A stretch of DNA of 64,000 nucleotides from a virus. The stretch is from the IMG/VR virus record IMGVR_UViG_3300046468_002660; one strand, given 5' to 3'. Both the position numbers and the translations under genes were made by a program. The notes below the pieces were generated by a model. The model had not been told where the DNA came from and did no database searches. It saw only the letters and a list, made by a program, of their open reading frames with translations. This document shows positions 3,387 to 57,700 of this stretch, one piece after another (position 1 is the stretch's first letter; the number at the start of each line of letters is the position of its first letter).

Positions 3387-3866
3387 ATGGTACAAATAAT
3401 AGATGGTAATCTTCTTGATTTCCCTAATGAAATAGATTTTATCGCTCACTCTTGCAATACTCATAATGTTATGGGTGCAGGAGTTGCTCGACAAATAAAA
3501 GATCGCTACCCTAAAGCTTATGAAGCTGATTGTTATGCAATGTACGAAGGGGCTAATATTTTAGGGGATTATAGTTTTTCAGTAACAGATGCTACTCAAA
3601 ATAAAGGTATTTATAATATGTATACCCAATCTAAAATTGGAGACAAAAGATCAGTTAATTACGAAGCATTTTATGTAGCATTAAATAAAGTGGCGGGTCA
3701 TATTGAATGGCAATCCAAGCATGAAGGGGTAGAAAAGATTTTGGGCTTGCCTTGGATGATTTCTTGTGGACTTGCAGGGGGGAGTTGGAATGTAATTTTT
3801 TCAATGATAAATGATATTTTGATTGACAGAAAGTTTAAAACCTATATTGTTAAATACGATGAATAA
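3387..3866 (+). CDS. Macrodomain protein (ADP-ribose processing, T4 Tk.4-like)
   Basis: GNLLD, IAHSCN, MGAGVARQIK, ISCGLAGGSW macro signature. Confidence 0.85.
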   Translation: MVQIIDGNLLDFPNEIDFIAHSCNTHNVMGAGVARQIKDRYPKAYEADCYAMYEGANILGDYSFSVTDATQNKGIYNMYTQSKIGDKRSVNYEAFYVALNKVAGHIEWQSKHEGVEKILGLPWMISCGLAGGSWNVIFSMINDILIDRKFKTYIVKYDE

Positions 3867-9200: not shown

Positions 9201-9497
9201 ATGTGGAATTATAGAATAATTAAAGACGAAAATAATTATGGTCTTTACGAAGTTATGTATAATGACGATGGAGAAATATTCGCTCATAGCGAAAAACCCG
9301 AAATTGTTGGCGAAAACCCAAAAGATTTACTTGATACTTTAGAATTAATGATTCACGATGTAAATAAACACATTATTGATGGTAAAGAAATATTAGAAAT
9401 AGATAAAATAAAATTCGCAAAACCATGCGAAGATTATGATAAAAGTGAAGCTATAACTTATGAAGAGTTAAAAAAAATGCTTGACAAGTTAGAATAG
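9201..9497 (+). CDS. Hypothetical phage protein
   Basis: MWNYRII...YEVMYNDDG. Confidence 0.6.
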   Translation: MWNYRIIKDENNYGLYEVMYNDDGEIFAHSEKPEIVGENPKDLLDTLELMIHDVNKHIIDGKEILEIDKIKFAKPCEDYDKSEAITYEELKKMLDKLE

Positions 9498-9516
9498 CTA
9501 TAATAGTATTTTAGTT

Positions 9517-9741
9517 ATGACAAAAAAAACATACGAAGTAGAAATTGCGAGTACAACATATCGTACTTTTCAAGTAGAAGCAGATTCACCCGAAAAGGCT
9601 CAAGACATTGCATTTGATGAAATGTATGAAGATTATGAGATAAGTAAGACATGGAAGCAAAATGCTGAAGTTAGTTTTATAGAAGAGCAAGAAAAACCTA
9701 AAGATGATTCGGAGCTTGACAAACTAAACCAAGACTTATAA
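9517..9741 (+). CDS. Hypothetical protein
   Basis: Leaderless after TTGACA(9481)-N17-TAGTAT; VEADSPEKA motif. Confidence 0.6.
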   Translation: MTKKTYEVEIASTTYRTFQVEADSPEKAQDIAFDEMYEDYEISKTWKQNAEVSFIEEQEKPKDDSELDKLNQDL

Positions 9742-10041: not shown

Positions 10042-10232
10042 AAATAATTCGCACAATAATTAATTGGTTTCACCGCAAACGAAATATGCGTTCATCTAAA
10101 AAACAAATGGATAAAATAATGAGTGAAGTTAATGCTGACTTTATGGATTATGATGGCATGGGGAACTATGGAAGATTTCCTCCCGAAAAATAAACGCTTG
10201 ACAATAATAAATAAAAGATATAAGGTATAGAC

Positions 10233-10649
10233 ATGAAAGAAATTATAGGAGACGATCACCCAACTTACGAAGAATCCGTCAATATGACTCTTGCAGAAAA
10301 ACAAAAGGCTGAGGCTTTGACTTATCTCACAGAAGTAGAGAGCGAAATCAATAAGCAAAACATTGAAAGATTAATGAAAGAAAATCTTGAGCTTAGACAT
10401 CGCTTGTCATGTATTGCTGATGATATTGAAATTATTGATAGGCACATTAAAAATAATTGCAATAAAAGATTTAAAAGACCAAGCTTGAATAAAGATGGTA
10501 GCACCTATGCAGATGAAGCATGGCACAATGTTACAAATATAGAAATTGCTTGTGATTTAAATGATGACGAGCCATTATATTGGGGAAGTAAAATCAAAGG
10601 AGAACTCACTCAAGACCAAATCATGGAAATGGAACAACAAATACGATGA
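10233..10649 (+). CDS. Hypothetical protein
   Basis: Leaderless after TTGACA(10198)-N17-TAAGGT. Confidence 0.65.
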   Translation: MKEIIGDDHPTYEESVNMTLAEKQKAEALTYLTEVESEINKQNIERLMKENLELRHRLSCIADDIEIIDRHIKNNCNKRFKRPSLNKDGSTYADEAWHNVTNIEIACDLNDDEPLYWGSKIKGELTQDQIMEMEQQIR

Positions 10650-14086: not shown

Positions 14087-14161
14087 CGCATGGTAGCCAA
14101 GTGGTAAGGCAGGAGTCTGCAAAACTCCCATTCGTCAGTTCGATTCTGATCCATGCGTCCA
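14087..14161 (+). tRNA. trnC: tRNA-Cys (GCA)
   Basis: Acceptor CGCATGG/CCATGCG, D arm GCC-AAGTGGTAA-GGC, anticodon arm GGAGT-CTGCAAA-ACTCC, T arm GTCAG-TTCGATT-CTGAT, U73 and encoded CCA. Confidence 0.95.
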
Positions 14162-16822: not shown

Positions 16823-19129
16823 ATGATAATCACACAAAACAAATCAAAAGAGGTAATCAGTTCTCACGACTTTGAACAAGTCAATTGCACGATTGATGCT
16901 GAAGATATGCGTTATGTCGCATCCCTTCTTCGCAACAATTATTCAAACACAAGACTTGCAGTAGTACGCGAAATTAGTGCAAATGCACTAGATGCAAATG
17001 CTGAAGCAGGTGTTAATCGTCCTATTGAAATTAAGTTGCCAACTTCAATGAATCCAACATTTGCAGTTCGTGATTTCGGGGGTGGACTTAGCCAAGAAGA
17101 TGTTTTCGGTCTTTACTCTAAGTATGGTAAATCAACCAAGCGTACATCCAACAATTATATTGGTGCTTTCGGTATCGGTAAATTTGCTCCACTTTCTTAT
17201 GGTGACAACTTCACTTGTGTTTCTTTTCACAATGGGCTAAAAACTTCTTACAATGTATTTGTCGATGAGAATGACGATACCAAAATCACAAAGTTGTTTG
17301 AAGAACCAAGTAATGAACCAACAGGGTTATCTATTGAAGTTGCAGTTTCGGAAGATGATCGTAACGAATTTAGAGAAGTTGTACAAAAATTCTTTCGTTT
17401 CTTTTCTGATTCTGATATGCCAAAATTTCTTGGAGTCGAAGAAGGTTTTATACAAACTCCTAAAAAAGTTTTATCAAGTAAAACTGATGAATGGTTCTTT
17501 GCGGAAGACGAGAGTCGTGGATATGGTTATAATTATTACTCTCATGTTCTTATGGGTAGAGTTGCTTACCCTATTGATCCAAATGCAATAAATGTAGAAA
17601 ATTTTGTATCCAATGAAAGTTCTCGCAGAATAGTTCAACAACTTTTACAACAAAGTAATTTCTACTTTCGTGTTCCTCTTGGTTCAGTAAGATTGCATCA
17701 TAGTCGTGAGTCGCTAGAATACAACAAAGCAACTCAAAAAGAAATTTGTGCGATTCTTTACAAAGTTAGTCAAGATATTCAAACTATTGCAAAAGAAAAA
17801 CTTGCCGATAGTGAAGATTTGTGGGATGCAAAGAGAAATTACGCTCAAGTTATTAATGCTTTACCTTATCAAGTAAGAGGAGTATTTGAGAATAGTTTTG
17901 AGTGGAATAGTATCAAAATTACAGATTCTACATTTCAAAGAGATTATCAATTACAAGACGATCTAATTATTACTGATTACGAAAAAATTGAAGATAAAGA
18001 TTCTCGCAATGGTTTCAAGGTAAAAGCCACTAAAACAAATCGCATTTATTGTCAAGACAATTATCTTGTGATGATTCAAGATATTGATTCTTCTCATGGC
18101 AACAATCTAAGAGTTCGCACATTGATGAATGATTTACCCGACCTCAAAGGTGTTTATGTTGTTCATGCAACATCCGAATGTGGTAAATCAGAAGTTTATG
18201 ATAATTGGCAATTTGATCTTGTTGACGCAAAACATAAGAGATATTCTTCACAAGTAGATAAAGAAAAAATTGTTCGCAATAAAGTTTCGGGTACAAGTCG
18301 TGCTTCTATTCCATTGTTCAAAATGAGAATGGATAAATCTTCTTATGCTTATCGTAATGCAGATTATTGGCAAAATGTCAACGAACCAATCAATTCACTT
18401 GAGCTAGATGAAGTCGAAGGTTCTGTCAATAATAAAATCATTTATGTTCCAATCAAAAACTATAAGGTTGATAGTGAATCTTATGATCTTGACAGAGTTT
18501 ACAAAATATGCAGAGGTATCCGCAAAAGTGCTGAAGATAATTCAGAAGAAAAAAATCTTCAATTATTCGGTGTTCGTGCAGGTGATGTTAAAAAGTTAGA
18601 TAAAAGCACATGGGTATCATTCTTTGACTTTTATCTTGACTATTGCAAAAACATCATTCGTGACAATAAGAAAGAATGTCAATCAGCATACAAAACAATT
18701 CAATTCAAAAAATCTGTTAATAATGAATTCGCAGAATATCGTTGGAATTATGGTCAATTATTCACTAATAATACGCTTGACATTTCTAGTCTCGGTGATG
18801 ATCACTTGTTAGTTCGTTGTGCAGAGAATTGGAATCTTCTCATGCAAGAAAGTACAGATGATCGTAGATTTAGTGTGGCAATCAATGTAGTTTCATTAGG
18901 AGATCAAAAATGGTTAGATGATGTATTAGATACAAAAGTAAATGCCGAATCTATCATGCAAGAATTTAAATCATTGAAAGAAAAATATCCTTTACTTAAA
19001 ATAATCTCGCATAGTGTTAATCAATGGATCAACTTAAAACACAATAAAGATTATGACAATCGTAATACCAATGAAGATATTACCGAATATATTTCCTTGT
19101 GTGATCAAAAAGAGAGGGGGGAGAAGTGA
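16823..19129 (+). CDS. rIIA: rIIA-like protein (N-terminal GHKL/Hsp90-type ATPase domain)
   Basis: REISANALDA, RDFGGGLS, KSTK..SNNYIGAFGIG, SRESLEY; followed by rIIB-like gene. Confidence 0.85.
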   Translation: MIITQNKSKEVISSHDFEQVNCTIDAEDMRYVASLLRNNYSNTRLAVVREISANALDANAEAGVNRPIEIKLPTSMNPTFAVRDFGGGLSQEDVFGLYSKYGKSTKRTSNNYIGAFGIGKFAPLSYGDNFTCVSFHNGLKTSYNVFVDENDDTKITKLFEEPSNEPTGLSIEVAVSEDDRNEFREVVQKFFRFFSDSDMPKFLGVEEGFIQTPKKVLSSKTDEWFFAEDESRGYGYNYYSHVLMGRVAYPIDPNAINVENFVSNESSRRIVQQLLQQSNFYFRVPLGSVRLHHSRESLEYNKATQKEICAILYKVSQDIQTIAKEKLADSEDLWDAKRNYAQVINALPYQVRGVFENSFEWNSIKITDSTFQRDYQLQDDLIITDYEKIEDKDSRNGFKVKATKTNRIYCQDNYLVMIQDIDSSHGNNLRVRTLMNDLPDLKGVYVVHATSECGKSEVYDNWQFDLVDAKHKRYSSQVDKEKIVRNKVSGTSRASIPLFKMRMDKSSYAYRNADYWQNVNEPINSLELDEVEGSVNNKIIYVPIKNYKVDSESYDLDRVYKICRGIRKSAEDNSEEKNLQLFGVRAGDVKKLDKSTWVSFFDFYLDYCKNIIRDNKKECQSAYKTIQFKKSVNNEFAEYRWNYGQLFTNNTLDISSLGDDHLLVRCAENWNLLMQESTDDRRFSVAINVVSLGDQKWLDDVLDTKVNAESIMQEFKSLKEKYPLLKIISHSVNQWINLKHNKDYDNRNTNEDITEYISLCDQKERGEK

Positions 19130-19227: not shown

Positions 19228-20388
19228 ATGAATCAAGTACCATATCAACTCACAGAAAATTCACTCACAATCTTTTGGGATGGCAAGCCTTATACATTGC
19301 GTAAGGATCATGCCAACTTTCAACTTGCTAAGAAAGCTATTCTTGATGCTAGGTATGATGATCTCGGTGATCTTATTGACATTTCCAAGGCGGTAGAAAA
19401 CTTTGTCGAAGGTGATATTGAAGTAAAAGATGAAGTTGTTTATTACAAAGGTCATCGTTTGCATGGTGTTGTTGTGGATAAATTGCTTGAAATGCTTCGT
19501 GCAGGAATGAAAGATTCTGCTCCACTCACTAACTTTATTTCTCGCTTGCAAGCTAATCCAAGTGCAAATTCAGTAAATGAACTTTATTCTTTTATGAGTT
19601 ATAAGTCTCTTGCGAATACTTCCGAAGGTAAGGTTTTAGGTTACAAAGGTGTACAATCCGATTATTGGAGTACAACAGGTAATGCTGATACAATTGTATT
19701 ACAAGGCGAAACTAATGATCGTCACCAAATTCTCAATGAGGTTGGTGCAACAATTGAAGTCGCTCGCAGATGCGTAGATGACAATAAGGATAATCATTGC
19801 TCTTTCGGTCTTCATGTTGGTTCATTTGATTATGCCGATAGTTGGGCAGGAGAAGGTGGAAGATTACTTCTAGTCGAATTTGATCCTGCTGATGCAGTAT
19901 CTGTACCAACTGATTGCGATTTTCAAAAACTTAGGGTTTCTAAGTACAAGGTGATCTCTGATATTAGTGATACAAGAAAAGAGCTTAATAAACCTGTCTA
20001 CGAGGCTAATAAGCCTATTTATGGATCAGATGATGATGAGGATTTCGGGGGTCACAATGAAGATGATTCAGATTATGTAGATATGGAATCTAATATTGAT
20101 GATGGTTCGGGCATTGAATATGATGATGATAATTGGGAACAATTGGGCGAAGAAGTATTAGAAGAAGATATGGATCAAACAGAAAAAGATATAAGTGAAT
20201 ATATAGAAACTTATATAAATAATAAACACGATAATTCTGTCAATCCAACTCTTAAAAACATTGCTGATCTTAGAGCTTGTAAGAATGAGAGATTAACTTG
20301 TAAAGAAATTTATAAAATTGTTGATGATCTTAATTTCGTTGTTGAAGAAGATGATAACAAACCTTTAAATCAATTACGAGTACTTTAA
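19228..20388 (+). CDS. rIIB: rIIB-like protein with acidic C-terminal extension
   Basis: NPS...ELYSF, GYKGV..DY, VDDN...CSFGLHVG...YA, PADAVSVPTD...KLRV. Confidence 0.85.
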   Translation: MNQVPYQLTENSLTIFWDGKPYTLRKDHANFQLAKKAILDARYDDLGDLIDISKAVENFVEGDIEVKDEVVYYKGHRLHGVVVDKLLEMLRAGMKDSAPLTNFISRLQANPSANSVNELYSFMSYKSLANTSEGKVLGYKGVQSDYWSTTGNADTIVLQGETNDRHQILNEVGATIEVARRCVDDNKDNHCSFGLHVGSFDYADSWAGEGGRLLLVEFDPADAVSVPTDCDFQKLRVSKYKVISDISDTRKELNKPVYEANKPIYGSDDDEDFGGHNEDDSDYVDMESNIDDGSGIEYDDDNWEQLGEEVLEEDMDQTEKDISEYIETYINNKHDNSVNPTLKNIADLRACKNERLTCKEIYKIVDDLNFVVEEDDNKPLNQLRVL

Positions 20389-22410: not shown

Positions 22411-22670
22411 TGGATGCGACAATTAAACCTCTTAGTGATAAAGTTAGTATGTTTGCATCTAACGATGAATTATACGAACAATTAACCAACAAAGAATTAA
22501 TGTTAATTAAAATGGTTAAGGCGGAAGAATTCGTTGATGATTTATATAGAGCACACGATTCTGAAGCAAATAAAAAACTATTTCCCCCCGAAAAAAGTTG
22601 GTTTAAAATAAAAGAATTATTGAGAGAATTACGCGAATTAAATAAAAAACAAATAACCCCTAAAATATAA
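22410..22670 (+). CDS. Hypothetical protein
   Basis: TAATG overlap. Confidence 0.55.
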   Translation: MDATIKPLSDKVSMFASNDELYEQLTNKELMLIKMVKAEEFVDDLYRAHDSEANKKLFPPEKSWFKIKELLRELRELNKKQITPKI

Positions 22671-22679
22671 AAATAATAG

Positions 22680-22708
22680 TTGACAAATAACAAATAATAT
22701 AGTAATAT
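22680..22708 (+). promoter_or_regulatory. sigma70-type promoter for the ncRNA
   Basis: TTGACA-N17-TAATAT. Confidence 0.7.
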
Positions 22709-22764
22709 ATAATATATAAAATTGAGAAGGATAAACTCAAATAAATAAAATAATCCAAAATTTT

Positions 22765-22776
22765 TGTTCTTTTACA
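22765..22776 (+). promoter_or_regulatory. boxA-like antitermination element
   Basis: TGTTCTTTTACA vs rrn boxA TGCTCTTTAACA (10/12). Confidence 0.45.
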
Positions 22777-22781
22777 TTTTA

Positions 22782-23060
22782 AATTTTGAGCATAGATCTC
22801 GCAAGCATTAAGTTGCTAAAAGCCAATTCTTGTAAGTCTCAATTCACTTTGGAAGGGCTTATAATCCTTCCTGTGGGTGACCGAATGAGCCTGTCGTGAG
22901 CGGGCTAAGGTATGCAGATCCCTGTGGTGGGGTTGGTAGAGTCCAATCGGATGAGCCAAATGACAACACCAAGTCTAGTCTGTAGTTGGAAGTAGGTACA
23001 CCATGAACTGATGTTCACGCCGAAAACTTGAGGGTATACAGTAGCCCCTCCCCACACAAT
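22782..23060 (+). ncRNA. Large structured non-coding RNA, family not recognised
   Basis: GC-rich, no convincing ORF, multiple helices (TGTGGG/CCCACA, GGAAGG/CCTTCC, AGCCTG..GTGA..CGGGCT, TGAAC/GTTCA, GAGGG/CCCTC), own promoter and terminator. Confidence 0.7.
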
Positions 23061-23077
23061 TTTCTCTGATATCCTCG

Positions 23078-23126
23078 ACCCTCCTTGGTTCTCTCTTGCC
23101 CGCCACCTGAACCAAGGAGGGTTTTT
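23078..23126 (+). terminator. Intrinsic terminator with 14-bp stem and 17-nt C/U-rich loop
   Basis: ACCCTCCTTGGTTC-loop-GAACCAAGGAGGGT then T run. Confidence 0.75.
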
Positions 23127-23163
23127 GTTTGACAGCTGCTTTTTTATTTATTATAGTATACTC

Positions 23164-23418
23164 ATGAAAACATTAAAAGATATCTTATCAAACTACGGGT
23201 ACATGAACAGCAATCAGCTTAAAGAAATAGCTGAGCACTTCCCTGCATTCAGGGTTGTCATTAAATGGGGCGGACTTCCCCGCGAGCGTCTTCCAGCCTG
23301 GGAGGCAATATCCAGGATTAAATCAGTGGAGACCCAAAACATCGATTACTGTAGAGAGGTGTTTATCTCAGGTACTGAATACAACGCACTCAAACAAGCT
23401 TTCAACATCGCCGACTAA
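23164..23418 (+). CDS. Hypothetical protein
   Basis: Leaderless after TTGACA(23129)-N17-TATAGT. Confidence 0.65.
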   Translation: MKTLKDILSNYGYMNSNQLKEIAEHFPAFRVVIKWGGLPRERLPAWEAISRIKSVETQNIDYCREVFISGTEYNALKQAFNIAD

Positions 23419-24177: not shown

Positions 24178-24215
24178 CTCTTGACAAAAAACATTATAAC
24201 TATTATATTACTATC

Positions 24216-25088
24216 ATGAATACAGAAGAAAACACCAATATCGCTCCTCGCAAATCCGTTAACTTGCACATTTGCGGAGGTAATCGTACAATCGTAGACT
24301 TTGACGAAGTTCAAGCTGTACCAACTCCAATGCCTACAATGCGTACAAAACCAAACAAAAGAACAGGGGAATTTGCCATTTCTCACCAACCAATTGCTCA
24401 TGAAGCTCTTGTAGTTCGCACTAAAGATTCTCTCACTAGCAGAGGTTTCACCATTCAAGATGAGCTACACTCTCTCGCTAGGGACAACCAACATTACTTT
24501 GGATTGTTCTCTGTAGATCATCCTGATCGTGATCCATCAGATCGTGGGTGCGTTGTAGGGGTTCGTAATTCTCACGACAAAACTTTTCCTGCGGGACTTT
24601 GTGCAGGTGATGCACCATTTGTTTGCGATAATTTAATTTTTACAAACACCATAAAACTTGCTCGCAGACATACTCGCAACATTATGAACGATCTCGATTT
24701 TATGATCAATCGTGCTTTGGGTAAATTGTTTGGCTTTTGGCATGGGCAAGATGAGAGAGTAAAGGCTTATCAAGATCGCTCTGTTGGCAATGTTCTAGCT
24801 CACGATCTTATCATAAAAGCAGTTCGTGCAGGTGCTTTACCAAAATCAAAAATTCTTGATGTTGCAGATCAATGGGAATCAAGCGATCATGTTGAATTCA
24901 AAGATCGCAATATAAATTCTCTCTACAACGCTTTCACAGAGATTTACAAAGGTAACTTGGTTGCCTTGCCAAATCGTTCAGACGCTCTTCATTCTGTTCT
25001 TGATAGTTATGTTGACTTCAATATTGATAACCATGTTGAAAATACTATTGACATGGAAGTCGTAGAGGGCGAATTGGTAGAAGTTTAA
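24216..25088 (+). CDS. DUF932-family protein
   Basis: RNSHDKT...AG...FVCDNL...RRHT...LYNAFTE; leaderless after TTGACA(24181)-N17-TATATT. Confidence 0.75.
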   Translation: MNTEENTNIAPRKSVNLHICGGNRTIVDFDEVQAVPTPMPTMRTKPNKRTGEFAISHQPIAHEALVVRTKDSLTSRGFTIQDELHSLARDNQHYFGLFSVDHPDRDPSDRGCVVGVRNSHDKTFPAGLCAGDAPFVCDNLIFTNTIKLARRHTRNIMNDLDFMINRALGKLFGFWHGQDERVKAYQDRSVGNVLAHDLIIKAVRAGALPKSKILDVADQWESSDHVEFKDRNINSLYNAFTEIYKGNLVALPNRSDALHSVLDSYVDFNIDNHVENTIDMEVVEGELVEV

Positions 25089-42859: not shown

Positions 42860-43930
42860 ATGTATATGAAACATACAATCAATGGAACAGTAAATAGTAA
42901 AAAAATTATTGTAACTGGAGTCACTGGGCAAGATGGCAGCCATATGGTAGATTATCTTTTAAAAAATGTTGACTGTAAAATTTTTGGATCATTGAGAAGG
43001 ATAAGTGTGCCTAATTATAAGCACATTAAACATTTAAAAAATGAATCAAGATTTGAATCTATAAAATTAGATTTAACTGATTCGTACAGTATTCAAAATG
43101 CAATCACCAACATTCAACCAGATTATTTTATAAATTTTGGAGCACAGTCATTTGTGCAATCAAGCTGGGATTTTCCAGAGCAAACTTTTCAAACAGATGC
43201 TACTGCTATGATACATATATTAGAAGCAATTAGAAAGTTCGCTCCGAAGTGTCATTTTTATAACGCAGGGTCTTCTGAAGAATTTGGTGATGTAGTTTAT
43301 TCTCCACAAGACGAAAAGCATCCTTTAAGACCTCAGTCTCCGTATGGAGCAGCTAAAGCCGCAGCTAGACACCTCGTGAGAGTATATAAAGAATCTTATG
43401 ACTTGTACGCTATTCAAGGTTGGTTGTTTAATCACGAAGGAACTAGAAGAGGGTATGAATTTGTTACCAGAAAAATCAGTAATAGCATTGCAAAAATCAA
43501 AAAATGCATAGAAAAAAATGAAGATTTTAAACCTTTAAAATTAGGTAATCTTGACGCTAAAAGAGATTGGACAGATGCTGAAGATTTCATGGATGGCGTG
43601 TGGAAAATGTTAAACCAAGAAACACTAGATCCTAAAAATTATGTTCTAGCGAGTGGAGAAATGTATACGATTAGAGAATTCCTACAAGAAACTTTAAAAC
43701 ATGCAGGAATAAAATTTGTGGTATCTGGAGAAAAAGAAGATGAAAAATATCTAACTGAAGATGGAAAAACCTTAGTGATTATAGATCCGTCTCACTACAG
43801 ACATGCAGAGGTTAAGGAATTGCTTGGAGATTGCTCAAGAGCTAAAAAAGAATTGGGCTGGAAACCTAAAAACAGTTTTATTCAATTAGTGCATAAAATG
43901 TACGATAATGATTACGCAGAAAGTTCTTAA
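42860..43930 (+). CDS. gmd: GDP-mannose 4,6-dehydratase
   Basis: TGVTGQDGS, AQSFV, SSEEFG, SPYGAAK, LFNHE, FVTRKI, LGNLDAKRDW. Confidence 0.92.
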   Translation: MYMKHTINGTVNSKKIIVTGVTGQDGSHMVDYLLKNVDCKIFGSLRRISVPNYKHIKHLKNESRFESIKLDLTDSYSIQNAITNIQPDYFINFGAQSFVQSSWDFPEQTFQTDATAMIHILEAIRKFAPKCHFYNAGSSEEFGDVVYSPQDEKHPLRPQSPYGAAKAAARHLVRVYKESYDLYAIQGWLFNHEGTRRGYEFVTRKISNSIAKIKKCIEKNEDFKPLKLGNLDAKRDWTDAEDFMDGVWKMLNQETLDPKNYVLASGEMYTIREFLQETLKHAGIKFVVSGEKEDEKYLTEDGKTLVIIDPSHYRHAEVKELLGDCSRAKKELGWKPKNSFIQLVHKMYDNDYAESS

Positions 43931-54720: not shown

Positions 54721-57700
54721 ATGAGTGTAGTAAATATACCAACTAGTGCGACTGGCTATCATCAAAGTATTGTTAGTCAAGCAACTACTGCCCAGAAAGC
54801 AGTAAATAGAATGCAGATGTCGCCAAGATTGAATCCTCAAGGAATTGTACAGCCATTAGGAAAAATTACAAATTCAGCGAGTGAATTCCAAAAATCAATG
54901 GATGCATCCGCAGCTCGTGTTTTTGCTTTCGGGGCTGCAGTTGGAGTGATTAATGGAATATCCGATGCGTTTAGAGGAATAATTCAAGCAACAGCTGAAG
55001 TCGAAAAGTCGTTAAAAGATATTCAAGTTGTTATGGAAGCAACGGATAGTGCTATGAAAAAATTTGGAGATGGATTGTTTGACGTAGCAAGAAACACAGC
55101 TACTAGTTTTCAATTAGTAGCAGAATCTGCAACAGAATTAGCTCGTCAAGGTTTGAGTTCAGAAGAAACTCTTGCTAGAGTAAATTCCGCTTTAGTACTG
55201 AATAGACTATCAGGATTAGGGGCCGTAAAATCTACAGAGACTTTAACAGCAGCTATAAACTCATTTAATAAAGAAGGGATTACTCATGAACAAATTGTGA
55301 ATCGAATGGCTAATGTCGATGCTGCTTTTGCTGTATCCTCCGCTGATTTAGCTGAAGCGATATCAAGAGCTGGAGCTGTTGCGCAAGAATCAGGGGTTCA
55401 GTTTAACGAACTAGCTGCGATTGTAACCGCTGTCCAGCAAAGAACCGCCAGGGGTGGTTCTGTCATAGGTAATGGATTTAAAAGTATATTTACGAGAATA
55501 AAAAGAAGTAGAGTTAGAGATGCTCTAGAAGAGATCGGAGTAAGCACCACAAATTTAGATGGTAGTTTTAGATCTTCAATTGATGTATTGAAAGATTACG
55601 CTGGAGTTTATGAAACTTTATCAGATTCTCAAAAGTCATACACTTCAGAACAAATTGCTGGAGTATTTCAAATACAGAATTTGCAAGCGTTAATATCTGA
55701 TTTGAATGATGAGTACTCTGTGTATAATAGAGCTTTAGGTGTCGCTAATAATACAACTAATGAAGCCACGAAAAGAAACGAAGAACTAAATAAAACTTTA
55801 TCAGCTGTTTTTACGCAAACTTCGTTAACCGCAAAAGAATTAGCGGCTTCAATTGGAGAAATAGGTTTTTCGGACAACTTTAAAGAAATTTTAACATTTT
55901 TAAATAATTTAGCGGGAAAGTTAAATGAAATGCTTTCGGAAAATAAAGGGAGTGAATTAGCTAAAGGCTTAGTTCGCGGAATAGGAGCTTTTCTGACGGG
56001 TCCTGGTTTAGTTATTCTTGGCGCGGCTTTTATTAAAATTTTTGCAATGGTAACTAAATTTGCAAAAGAAGCTTTTTCTGATTTGTTAGGGGTTAATAAA
56101 GAAACTAAAAGACAACAAAGTTTGCAAGTTGCTATTAGTCAAATATTATCAACAAACGCTGGCTTGTATCAAAAAATATTTGCAGCGGGAACCAGTACTG
56201 CGAAGCAAGAACAAATGATATTAAACATCATAAAGCAAGAAACCGCAGAAAGACTGAAGCAAGAAGCGGTGATCAAAAGAATAGCCGCTTCAAGTAGCTT
56301 GGTTGGTATCGGAGCATCTGATAAAGGTTTTGTGCCTATGGGGAAAAGAGGGGCTAAGAAAACAGGTAGAAAAACTTTAAATGCAGCGAACGGTTTTCTT
56401 CCATCGTTTAATCAAGAAAAACGAGATATTAATAAAGGGGTTGGCGGAGCAAAGACAAGCGATAAACCAGTTTTATTAAAAAATCATAAGATGGGAAGGG
56501 GGCGCACAGAAAATGTAATCGCTCACACTGGCGAGTGGGTGATTAATAATTTTGGTGGTAGTGGAGGAACTGCAATATTTAACAGGGATATGGCAAAGCA
56601 GTATGGATTACCTAAAGAAGCAAAAAAAATTACCGCATCTGGAGGGCTTATTCCAAATTTTAGCAAGAAAAGAAAAGATACACTTACTAGACCTTCTCTT
56701 GAATTAGGTTGGTCTCCAGGCGGAAGATCCCAAATATCGCAAAAAAGTGATCCTTTTGATAAATTCACAGCGACAGTTAGCAGGATAGAACAAGATAAAA
56801 CAGCAGATGAAACAAAAGGTATCGTAAAAAAAGAATCAGGAAGATTCTTGCAACCTTATTGGGTTAATAAGAACAATAATAAGCAAGTATCATCAGAGTG
56901 GAGTGGTTCAAATTGGGGAGGATCTAGCTACAAAGAGATAAGTAAGTTGCCCGAAGAAGAAAGGCAAAATTTTGTTAAAAAATATAAAATACATTCAGAA
57001 AATTTTAAACAATTCAAAGCTAAAGGTTATGGACAATTAATGAAAACGTTTCCATACAATAATTCAAAAAAATATATTAAAGATATTGTAGATAGCGGGG
57101 GTTATTCTGGAAAGTCTCAACCTCAAGAATTAAAACAAAAATTTGCGGCTTTAAACATGAATTTATCAGGAGCTGCTGGGGAAATTAGTGGAGCAAAATA
57201 TTTAAAAAAAATAGGGTATTCAGATATAAAATTTATTGCTGCTGGAAAATCTTTTGATTACACAGCGAGAAATAAGAAAGGGGATAAAGTTCTCTTCGAA
57301 AACAAAATGAAAGAAATGCAGAATATATCTGCATATCTTAAGAAAGGAGCCACAGAGTATTTAGGTACTATTGCTGCTCCAGGCATTAAAGATAATAAAC
57401 CTCAAAATATAAATTTAGATTTAGTCAAATCTTCTGGGAGTCTATTATTTCCATCAGGGATTAATGCTGTTACTGCAAAAGATTCAAAAGAAACAAATTC
57501 AAAAATTACTCATAAAAATTTAGTGAAAGATTCTAAATTGAGAGAGCGGCTAGATAAAGAATTAGAATTAATATGGAAAAACCCTGACATTAAAGATTCA
57601 GTTAAAAGCGAAGAAACTATAAGAAATTTTTTATTTCATAACGCAGAGTCAAAAATACCAAGATATTCATCAGGATTCGTTCCAAACTTCGGCCCTAGGT

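What the first reader, a model, noticed from the sequence alone, without database searches (positions are those of the whole stretch)
22680..23126. Unrecognised ~400-nt structured RNA with promoter, boxA-like site and terminator
Seen: TTGACA-N17-TAATAT, then TGTTCTTTTACA, then a GC-rich stretch without a convincing ORF. It has hairpin GGAAGG/CCTTCC (22851-22871) and a 185-nt domain closed by TGTGGG/CCCACA (22872/23056). That domain holds a GNRA-capped hairpin, an AAGT/ACTT arm with a GAAA internal loop and TGAAC/GTTCA tip, and a GAGGG/CCCTC hairpin whose loop TACAG can pair with CTGTA at 22980 (pseudoknot). GGTATGCAG (~22910) nearly repeats GGTATACAG (23033), allowing an alternative pairing. 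It lacks RNase P, tmRNA, SRP and group II DV signatures. Inference: a stable, highly expressed phage RNA of unknown class.
Basis: partly seen in the sequence, partly recalled or inferred. Interest (0 to 1): 0.72.

Follow-up and report, generated by a model that had tools for sequence, protein, structure and literature searches.

The report
manA RNA gene in marine phage
The flagged stretch is a real folded RNA, but it belongs to the already catalogued "manA" family. Here it is built as a gene of its own, with its own start and stop signals, in an uncultured marine phage, which fits a recent report that manA RNAs assemble into RNA-only cages rather than switch a neighbouring gene.

Summary
Window 22851-23060 (+) is a full-length manA RNA (Rfam RF01745, 82.6 bits against a cut-off of 55.2, E 1.7e-19).

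Its fold is strongly supported on 49 distinct relatives: 87% of cells paired against 69% in shuffles, and 54 of 66 pairs show compensatory change.

In about 28 related uncultured marine phage loci (contigs up to ~200 kb) the unit has the same layout:
- a sigma-70 promoter
- a covarying 5' pseudoknot
- a boxA-like 12-mer
- an optional insert
- the manA core
- a covarying intrinsic terminator
- a separate promoter whose -10 box lies 6-7 nt before the next ATG

The terminator is predicted to form at probability 0.97 or more, and the unit persists where the next gene differs. It therefore looks like a free-standing RNA gene, not a riboswitch for its neighbour.

Two loop-loop pairings covary, which matches the number of kissing interfaces in the pentamer of a 2026 cryo-EM preprint on manA cages.

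Earlier reports of this scan described manA-like RNA genes on other DNA.

Verdict: a new member of a known kind, of moderate interest.

The parts
22680..22708 (+). Sigma-70-type promoter of the RNA gene (TTGACA-N17-TAATAT). The start site is inferred to lie near 22714-22716.
   Evidence: Found by the scan. The -35 and -10 boxes are conserved at the same place in relatives while the spacer varies. It is the only perfect-TTGACA promoter on the + strand, apart from one inside the 54721-63999 ORF, with no ORF behind it.
22722..22756 (+). 5' leader H-type pseudoknot. Stem 1 is TTGAG 22722-26 with CTCAA 22736-40. Stem 2 is loop GGAT 22729-32 with ATCC 22753-56. An A-rich linker joins them.
   Evidence: Stem 1 occurs as TTGAG/CTCAA, ATGAG/CTCAT, CTGAG/CTCAG and TCGAG/CTCGA. 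Stem 2 occurs as GGAT/ATCC, AGAT/ATCT, GAGGC/GCCTC, GGGC/GCCC, GGGGT/ACCCC and GGGGC/GCCCC. Own-partner score is 130 against a permuted mean of 97.1, with 0 of 5000 permutations as high.
22765..22776 (+). boxA-like 12-mer TGTTCTTTTACA. It matches 10 of 12 positions of the E. coli rrn boxA TGCTCTTTAACA, which I quote from my own knowledge.
   Evidence: The core TCTTTWAHA is present at the same leader position in 26 of 28 distinct clade loci. It is the only + strand copy in the 64-kb window. Nus-factor binding is inferred.
22777..22850 (+). Variable insert between the leader and the manA core, ending in the conserved CACTTT.
   Evidence: The same sequence, bar one base, is present in L085. Other genomes have nothing here or unrelated inserts, leaving 12-170 nt between the box and manA. 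The whole leader 22715-22850 is not thermodynamically unusual (z -0.77).
22851..23060 (+). manA RNA core (Rfam RF01745), full length.
   Evidence: 82.6 bits against a gathering score of 55.2, E 1.7e-19, model positions 1-192 of 192. 54 of 66 pairs show compensatory change on 49 distinct sequences.
22924..22971 (+). Loop-loop pair 1: loop GUGGUG (22924-29) with loop ACACCA (22966-71).
   Evidence: GGUG x CACC/UACC changes to GGC x GCC in L011, L014 and L049. The register-free own-versus-permuted test gives 11 of 5000 permutations as high. Whether the pairing is within or between molecules cannot be told from sequence.
23008..23045 (+). Loop-loop pair 2: arm-tip loop C-UGAU (23008-12) with the terminal-hairpin loop UAUACAGUAGC (23035-45). 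The core pairing is CUG x CAG.
   Evidence: Compensated variants are CUA x UAG, CUAAA x UUUAG, CUUU x GAAG, UAUAU x AUAUA, UGUC x GACA and UGCA x UGCA. Own mean is 4.04 against a cross mean of 3.16, with 0 of 5000 permutations as high.
23077..23129 (+). Intrinsic terminator: a 14-15 bp stem, a 17-nt loop, then TTTTTGTTT.
   Evidence: Both the MFE and the centroid fold contain it. Stem sequences differ and stay complementary across relatives. It is present in 23 of 28 loci. Stem probability is 0.97-1.0 in 22 of 22 loci when folded together with manA.
23129..23157 (+). Separate promoter of the next gene (TTGACA-N17-TATAGT, 11 of 12 matches). The -10 box ends 6 nt before the ATG, which is leaderless-type geometry.
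   Evidence: Found. A downstream promoter is present in 26 of 28 loci, with the ATG 6-7 nt after the -10 box in 21 of 28. Three other genes in the window have the same geometry.
23164..23418 (+). Frequently linked 84-aa gene of unknown function. It is a neighbour, not part of the RNA.
   Evidence: A homologue starts less than 250 nt after manA in 17 of 28 loci, 0.3-0.9 kb away in 4, and is absent within 2.5 kb in 7, two of which had short flanks. It has no Pfam or PHROG family. The AF2 model has pLDDT 93.6 and no convincing PDB match.

Best explanation
The element is a canonical manA-family RNA (RF01745), packaged as a free-standing, early-transcribed RNA gene of an uncultured marine phage.

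Proposed steps:
1. Host sigma-70 RNA polymerase starts near 22715 (inferred).
2. The first ~60 nt fold into a pseudoknot, followed by a boxA-like box. I infer that this protects the 5' end and recruits the host Nus complex, so that the ~410-nt untranslated transcript escapes Rho and folds co-transcriptionally, as in rRNA operons.
3. The 210-nt manA core folds (shown by covariation).
4. A strong constitutive intrinsic terminator ends the RNA near 23126-23129 (the structure is shown, the 3' end is inferred).
5. The next gene is read from its own promoter.

The RNA most likely acts as a structural RNA in trans. Its two covarying loop-loop pairings would be kissing contacts by which copies join into pentamer-based closed oligomers, as reported in vitro for other manA RNAs. 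What the assembly does for the phage is unknown.
For: Family membership:
- 82.6 bits, full model.
- covariation, 0 of 500 shuffles as high.

Free-standing gene:
- The upstream promoter, leader and terminator are conserved, and a separate promoter abuts the next ATG.
- Terminator stem probability is 0.97 or more in 22 of 22 loci, with no competing pairing.
- The unit is kept where the next gene is different or displaced.
- There is a single copy per genome, found in 12 of 16 related records.

Independent stable-RNA contexts elsewhere:
- In phage S-CREM1, manA lies 1 nt after tRNA-Leu and abuts tRNA-Asn.
- In L137 it lies between tRNA-Thr and tRNA-Ala, and in L120 it abuts tRNA-Pro.

Leader: pseudoknot covariation and a conserved boxA-like box.

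Self-assembly:
- Ren et al. 2026 (bioRxiv 10.64898/2026.07.01.735769) report manA decamers and a 60-mer cage, built on kissing loops L5-L7' and L8-L9'.
- Here exactly two loop pairs covary, and by loop order they fit L5/L7 and L8/L9. That mapping is my inference.
Against:
- The host is unknown, so the boxA-like box could not be compared with the host's rrn boxA. Nus binding is untested.
- Covariation cannot tell intramolecular from intermolecular loop pairing.
- The assemblies were shown only in vitro, in a preprint, on other family members.
- In T4-like cyanophages manA sits at the 5' end of mRNAs, 16-70 nt before ORFs. That fits the older cis-regulatory view and shows the family is not always a separate gene.
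- manA and the 84-aa gene are adjacent in 17 of 28 loci, which could still reflect a functional link.
Confidence: 0.6

Rival explanations
1. Riboswitch-type attenuator. manA senses a metabolite and decides whether transcription stops at the 23077-23129 terminator or reads on into the 84-aa gene and beyond.
For: - A structured domain followed 17-25 nt later by an intrinsic terminator is the classic riboswitch layout.
- Rfam and Weinberg et al. 2010 (PMC2864571) class manA as a probable cis-regulator and possible riboswitch.
- In T4-like cyanophages it lies directly upstream of ORFs.
- The 84-aa gene follows in 17 of 28 loci.
Against: - No alternative pairing is predicted: the terminator stem is at 0.97 probability or more in all 22 loci.
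- Both the aptamer 3' strand and the terminator 5' arm are C-rich, so the usual antiterminator cannot form.
- The next gene has its own conserved promoter, with the -10 box 6-7 nt from the ATG and no Shine-Dalgarno sequence. Read-through RNA would therefore carry a poorly translatable internal AUG.
- The unit persists with other downstream genes and occurs inside tRNA arrays elsewhere.
- No ligand has been found for manA since 2010.
Confidence: 0.17
2. A monomeric trans-acting RNA that binds or sequesters a host or phage protein (decoy or scaffold), with both loop-loop pairings intramolecular and no cage formation in vivo.
For: - The gene is free-standing.
- The two covarying loop pairs lie on neighbouring helices and could close within one molecule.
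- Weinberg et al. 2010 already drew a possible pseudoknot in manA.
Against: - The cryo-EM preprint reports the kissing loops as intermolecular in every manA tested.
- No candidate protein partner was found. The linked 84-aa protein has no RNA-binding signature.
Confidence: 0.15
3. A cis-acting 5' stabiliser or processing module of a longer early transcript, with terminator read-through as the norm. The structure would protect or time the downstream mRNA without sensing a ligand.
For: - It has the same strand and orientation as all neighbouring early genes.
- A boxA-type leader could in principle carry polymerase through terminators.
- In cyanophages manA forms the 5' end of mRNAs.
Against: - rrn-type Nus complexes act mainly against Rho, not against strong intrinsic terminators (established knowledge).
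- The terminator is conserved by compensatory change, which implies selection for termination.
- A downstream promoter is conserved.
Confidence: 0.08

Closest known systems
manA RNA motif (Rfam RF01745; Weinberg et al. 2010, PMC2864571; cryo-EM assemblies in Ren et al. 2026, bioRxiv 10.64898/2026.07.01.735769)
   Same: It matches the full model above the gathering score. It has the same helices and the same conserved loops (GUGGUG, ACCA, GGUAUACAGUA). It is phage-borne and marine, and it has two complementary loop pairs.
   Different: - It is not in a T4-like cyanophage: rIIA is at most 27% and TerL at most 26% identical to any cultured phage.
- It does not abut an ORF. It has a ~135-nt leader (pseudoknot, boxA-like box, insert), its own terminator and a separate downstream promoter.
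- The arm at model positions ~133-160 is replaced by a longer three-part arm, which the Rfam model aligns poorly but which covaries within the clade (helices 11-13).
ROOL and GOLLD RNAs (Kretsch et al. 2025, PMC12286853)
   Same: They are phage-encoded, free-standing, often beside tRNA genes, and of unknown function, and they form RNA-only homo-oligomeric cages through loop-loop contacts.
   Different: They are 2.5 to 4 times larger, and no Rfam match to them occurs here. They form different assemblies. The likeness is in how they may work, not in membership.
rrn-operon and lambda nut antitermination leaders (boxB hairpin, boxA, Nus factors; Singh et al. 2016, PMC4807359)
   Same: A structured element followed by a boxA-like 12-mer, soon after the promoter and ahead of a long untranslated structured RNA.
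   Different: The upstream element is a pseudoknot, not a simple boxB hairpin. No boxC was identified. The host and its own boxA are unknown, and binding is untested.
Transcription-terminating riboswitches
   Same: A conserved folded domain followed closely by an intrinsic terminator.
   Different: No mutually exclusive pairing was found, no ligand is known, and the downstream gene has its own promoter.

Membership tests
manA RNA (Rfam RF01745) | Covariance-model score at or above the curated gathering score, over the whole model | tested here: met
   82.6 bits against 55.2, E 1.7e-19, model positions 1-192 of 192, not truncated. Relatives score 64-93 bits.
manA RNA (Rfam RF01745) | Consensus helices maintained by compensatory change | tested here: met
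   87.4% of cells paired against 68.6% in shuffles. 54 of 66 pairs show a change on both sides, and 0 of 500 shuffles are as high. Slid controls are at most 50%. The alignment was fitted to a model of this structure, which favours it somewhat.
manA RNA (Rfam RF01745) | Conserved loop sequences GUGGUG, ACCA and GGUAUACAGUA | tested here: met
   All are present in the window: 22924-29, 22966-71 and 23033-43.
manA RNA (Rfam RF01745) | Self-assembly into pentamer-based closed oligomers (Ren et al. 2026) | not testable with these tools
   Only the sequence prerequisite could be checked: two covarying complementary loop pairs.
Cis-regulatory 5'-UTR element or riboswitch (the functional class given to manA in Rfam) | Lies in the 5' UTR of the regulated gene, with an expression platform that alternates with the sensor fold | tested here: not met
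   A terminator and an independent promoter lie between manA and the next ATG. The terminator is at 0.97 probability or more in 22 of 22 loci. The downstream gene varies.
Nus-dependent (boxA) antitermination leader | 12-nt boxA consensus shortly after the promoter and upstream of an untranslated RNA | tested here: met
   TGTTCTTTTACA at 22765-76 lies about 50 nt after the inferred start. It matches 10 of 12 positions of the E. coli rrn boxA (from my own knowledge). The core is conserved in 26 of 28 loci.
Nus-dependent (boxA) antitermination leader | Binding of NusB-NusE, and identity with the host's own rrn boxA | not testable with these tools
   The host is unknown and no whole genome is held for this window.
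Intrinsic (Rho-independent) terminator | GC-rich stem directly followed by a U-tract, kept by compensatory change | tested here: met
   A 14-15 bp stem followed by TTTTTGTTT. Stems differ and stay paired in relatives, and it is present in 23 of 28 loci. The simple scanner missed it because its loop is 17 nt.

The most novel reading that the evidence does not exclude
manA is not a riboswitch at all. It is a phage stable-RNA gene, transcribed behind an rRNA-style Nus antitermination leader or cut out of tRNA arrays, and its product builds RNA-only cages inside infected cells. This clade would then offer a clean, self-contained transcription unit in which to test what such cages do.
Probability: 0.3. 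Interest if true: 0.75.

Novelty: new member of a known kind. Interest (0 to 1): 0.36.

Why it matters
manA has been filed for 16 years as an orphan riboswitch candidate. A 2026 preprint shows that it builds RNA cages in vitro but gives no biological context.

This locus and about 28 relatives show manA as an autonomous unit: promoter, leader, core and terminator, with a constitutive terminator and an independently promoted neighbour. Three other phages carry it wedged into tRNA arrays.

Together these argue that manA is, at least in many phages, a gene product in its own right. That points experiments towards a trans-acting or structural role and gives precise constructs to test: the full unit, the leader and the kissing-loop pairs. 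It also extends the family beyond T4-like cyanophages.

Tried and rejected
- **Transcript mapping.** These shares were never laid and are no evidence of expression.
- **blastn against phages.** blastn of 22600-23200 against the INPHARED phages found nothing, because manA is too divergent for blastn across clades.
- **Pattern scans of IMG/VR.** One fixed-gap pattern was too narrow and gave 4 hits. A two-anchor pattern was too loose, and only 9 of the loci screened were true manA by nhmmer.
- **RybB.** RybB (RF00110) matched 23056-23129 at 23.7 bits, E 0.018, below its gathering score of 40. This is only the terminator hairpin and U-run, so I rejected it.
TACAG x CTGTA was rejected for lack of covariation.
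- **The 84-aa protein.** There were no Pfam, PHROG or Atlas leads. Foldseek against the PDB gave nothing at E 0.001 or better, and the wide VIA-align search gave a best Z of 4.1. No function is assigned.
- **A tRNA upstream of manA in L053.** This was suspected by eye but not confirmed by ARAGORN.
- **Host identification.** The terminase and rIIA have only 22-27% identity to cultured phages of unrelated hosts, so no host is inferred.
- **Whole-genome search.** No genome is held for this window.
- **Leader thermodynamics.** The leader 22715-22850 is not unusual (z -0.77), nor is manA plus terminator (z -1.71). The evidence for structure is comparative.

Full report
**What is there**

An Rfam scan of the whole window gives one hit in the region: manA RNA (RF01745) at 22851-23060 on the + strand. 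It scores 82.6 bits against a gathering score of 55.2, with E 1.7e-19, over model positions 1-192 of 192 (alignment). The TGTGGG/CCCACA helix is its closing helix. The GAGGG/CCCTC hairpin with the GGUAUACAGUA loop is its conserved 3' hairpin. So the RNA is real, but its class is catalogued. manA was described by Weinberg et al. 2010 (PMC2864571) in marine metagenomes, T4-like cyanophages and two gamma-proteobacteria, as a probable cis-regulator and possible riboswitch.

**Genomic setting**

The window is phage DNA. It carries a helicase, rIIA (16823-19129), rIIB (19228-20388), PhoH, a terminase, a portal protein and a very long tail protein. It is far from any cultured phage:
- rIIA is at most 27% identical to any cultured phage.
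- TerL is 22-26% identical, to Bacillus siphoviruses.
- A 529-aa structural protein and the RNA region itself have no match.

The same DNA is held almost whole by at least 14 seawater or marine metagenome runs. IMG/VR holds many relatives, several of them contigs of about 200 kb. No host can be named.

**Conservation of the unit**

RF01745 occurs once per genome in 12 of 16 related records. A model built from the clade finds it 2-7.5 kb downstream of rIIB in 33 of 80 rIIB-linked loci, three of them cut off at the locus end. Alignment of the flanks and counts over 28 distinct loci give a fixed layout:

| Element | Window coordinates | Loci with it (of 28) |
|---|---|---|
| Promoter TTGACA-N17-TATAAT | 22680-22708 | not counted (the script scored a promoter-like site inside the leader); conserved in the flank alignments |
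| Leader hairpin | 22722-22740 | 26 |
| boxA-like box, core TCTTTWAHA | 22765-22776 | 26 |
| Insert (leaves 12-170 nt between box and manA) | 22777-22850 | variable |
| manA core | 22851-23060 | 28 |
| Intrinsic terminator | 23077-23129 | 23 |
| Second TTGACA promoter | 23129-23157 | 26 |
| ATG 6-7 nt after the second -10 box | 23164 | 21 |

The terminator stems differ in sequence and stay complementary across relatives.

**The leader**

The leader hairpin is part of an H-type pseudoknot.
- Stem 1 occurs in four fully compensated forms: TTGAG/CTCAA, ATGAG/CTCAT, CTGAG/CTCAG and TCGAG/CTCGA.
- The hairpin loop pairs with the segment just before the boxA-like box, in six variants: GGAT/ATCC, AGAT/ATCT, GAGGC/GCCTC, GGGC/GCCC, GGGGT/ACCCC and GGGGC/GCCCC.
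- Own partners score 130 against 97.1 for permuted partners, with 0 of 5000 permutations as high.

The box TGTTCTTTTACA matches the E. coli rrn boxA TGCTCTTTAACA at 10 of 12 positions (the consensus is from my own knowledge). It is the only + strand copy of its core in the window. BoxA recruits NusB and NusE, and with them a complex that protects long untranslated RNA from Rho and helps it fold (Singh et al. 2016, PMC4807359). That it does so here is an inference.

**The fold**

On the model-based alignment A2 (53 hits, 49 distinct), with cyanophage and other IMG/VR manA RNAs included:
- 87.4% of cells pair, against 68.6% in shuffles.
- 54 of 66 pairs show changes on both sides.
- The covariation score is 0.408 against 0.131, and 0 of 500 shuffles reach the observed values.
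- Slid controls stay at or below 50%.

The arm at 22990-23029 differs from the Rfam consensus, where the alignment is poor, but it covaries within the clade.

Two other loop-loop pairings are supported.
- *Arm-tip loop (C-UGAU, 23008-12) with the terminal loop (23035-45).* The core is CUG x CAG. Natural compensations are CUA x UAG, CUAAA x UUUAG, CUUU x GAAG, UAUAU x AUAUA, UGUC x GACA and UGCA x UGCA. In a register-free test 0 of 5000 permutations are as high.
- *Loop GUGGUG (22924-29) with loop ACACCA (22966-71).* GGC x GCC variants occur, and 11 of 5000 permutations are as high.

Related sequences share ancestry, so these numbers are not strict probabilities.

**What manA does**

Ren et al. 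2026 (bioRxiv 10.64898/2026.07.01.735769) report by cryo-EM that manA RNAs assemble in vitro into pentamer-based octamers, decamers and a 60-subunit T=1 cage. The contacts are intermolecular kissing loops L5-L7' and L8-L9', with L3-L8' and a GNRA-receptor contact in another variant. Counting hairpin loops 5' to 3', the two covarying pairs found here fit L5/L7 and L8/L9. The text gives no loop sequences, so this mapping is my inference. The preprint shows no in vivo role.

**Cis-regulator or gene of its own?**

Contexts differ between phages.
- *T4-like cyanophages.* In P-SSM2, P-SSM7, P-HM2, P-RSM6 and others, manA begins a few nucleotides after a TTGACA-N17-TATAAT promoter that overlaps a terminator hairpin. 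It ends 16-70 nt before an ORF such as purL, a carbamoyltransferase, gp32 or talC. In P-TIM68 the next gene is on the other strand.
- *tRNA arrays.* In S-CREM1 manA starts 1 nt after tRNA-Leu and abuts tRNA-Asn. In L137 it lies between tRNA-Thr and tRNA-Ala, and in L120 it abuts tRNA-Pro. This is the context of an RNA released by tRNA processing.
- *This clade.* manA has its own terminator. Folded together with manA, the terminator stem has a probability of 0.97-1.0 in all 22 loci tested, so no antiterminator competes with it. Both the manA 3' strand and the terminator 5' arm are C-rich. The next gene has its own promoter in leaderless-type geometry and no Shine-Dalgarno sequence, while other genes in the window do have GGAG. 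The 84-aa gene follows directly in 17 of 28 loci, lies 0.3-0.9 kb away in 4, and is absent in 7. In five of those seven the terminator and a downstream promoter are still found.

I therefore favour a free-standing RNA gene (about 0.7) and, within that, a self-assembling structural RNA (overall statement 0.6). A metabolite-controlled attenuator remains possible (0.17).

**The neighbour**

The 84-aa protein has no Pfam or PHROG family. It folds confidently (pLDDT 93.6) into a small alpha/beta domain. It has no convincing structural relative: Foldseek gives nothing at E 0.001 or better, and the best VIA-align Z is 4.1. No link to the RNA can be claimed.

**Limits**

The host is unknown.

**Earlier reports of this scan**

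Earlier reports described manA-like RNA genes with similar leaders, or set in tRNA arrays, on other DNA, and pointed me to the preprint. I checked the preprint and the leader claim independently here.

**Verdict**

The element is a new member of a known family in a new phage lineage. Its gene architecture argues against the family's textbook cis-regulatory label.

Noticed in passing
window 3823-3861, 9481-9519, 23129-23166, 24181-24218: Four perfect-TTGACA promoters have their -10 box ending 6-8 nt before an ATG that opens an ORF, with no Shine-Dalgarno sequence. Other genes (for example 19228, 22219, 11888) have GGAG-type sites. This suggests a set of leaderless early mRNAs in this phage.
   Followed up: partly
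L111 (P-SSM2), L235, L237, L239, L241, L242: the ~40 nt upstream of manA: In T4-like cyanophages the -35 box TTGACA of the manA promoter sits in the loop of a terminator hairpin (GAGGGTGC-TTGACA-CCCTC followed by a T-run). One compact element therefore ends the upstream transcript and starts manA.
   Followed up: no
L107/L112 (S-CREM1 10215-10429); L137 12440-12639; L120 3043-3247 (-): manA RNAs are wedged into tRNA arrays with gaps of 0-11 nt to the flanking tRNA genes. In S-CREM1 a wcaG RNA and an abiF sRNA are annotated in the same array.
   Followed up: partly
window 22777-22850, and the same site in L082/L095, L096, L100, L101, L106, L041, L052, L016: The slot between the boxA-like box and manA holds nothing or unrelated inserts in different genomes, leaving 12-170 nt between the box and manA. 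Some inserts look like extra hairpin modules. The window's insert is shared, bar one base, with L085.
   Followed up: partly
window 23164-23418: An 84-aa protein family with the conserved motif VVIKWGGxPRE...DYCREVF. It is confined so far to this phage clade, folds confidently and has no known relative. It usually lies next to manA but has its own promoter.
   Followed up: partly
window 22722-22751: The leader hairpin and its A-rich tail also read as a promoter-like site (TTGAGA-N18-TAAAAT). Compensatory changes in the stem favour the RNA-structure reading, but a second, weaker start cannot be excluded.
   Followed up: partly
window 42860-43930: A nucleotide-sugar epimerase gene (phrog_540, E 1.3e-66) sits inside the head-gene block, just after the putative portal gene.
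   Followed up: no
window 14087-14161: A single tRNA-Cys(GCA) gene, not adjacent to the manA gene.
   Followed up: no
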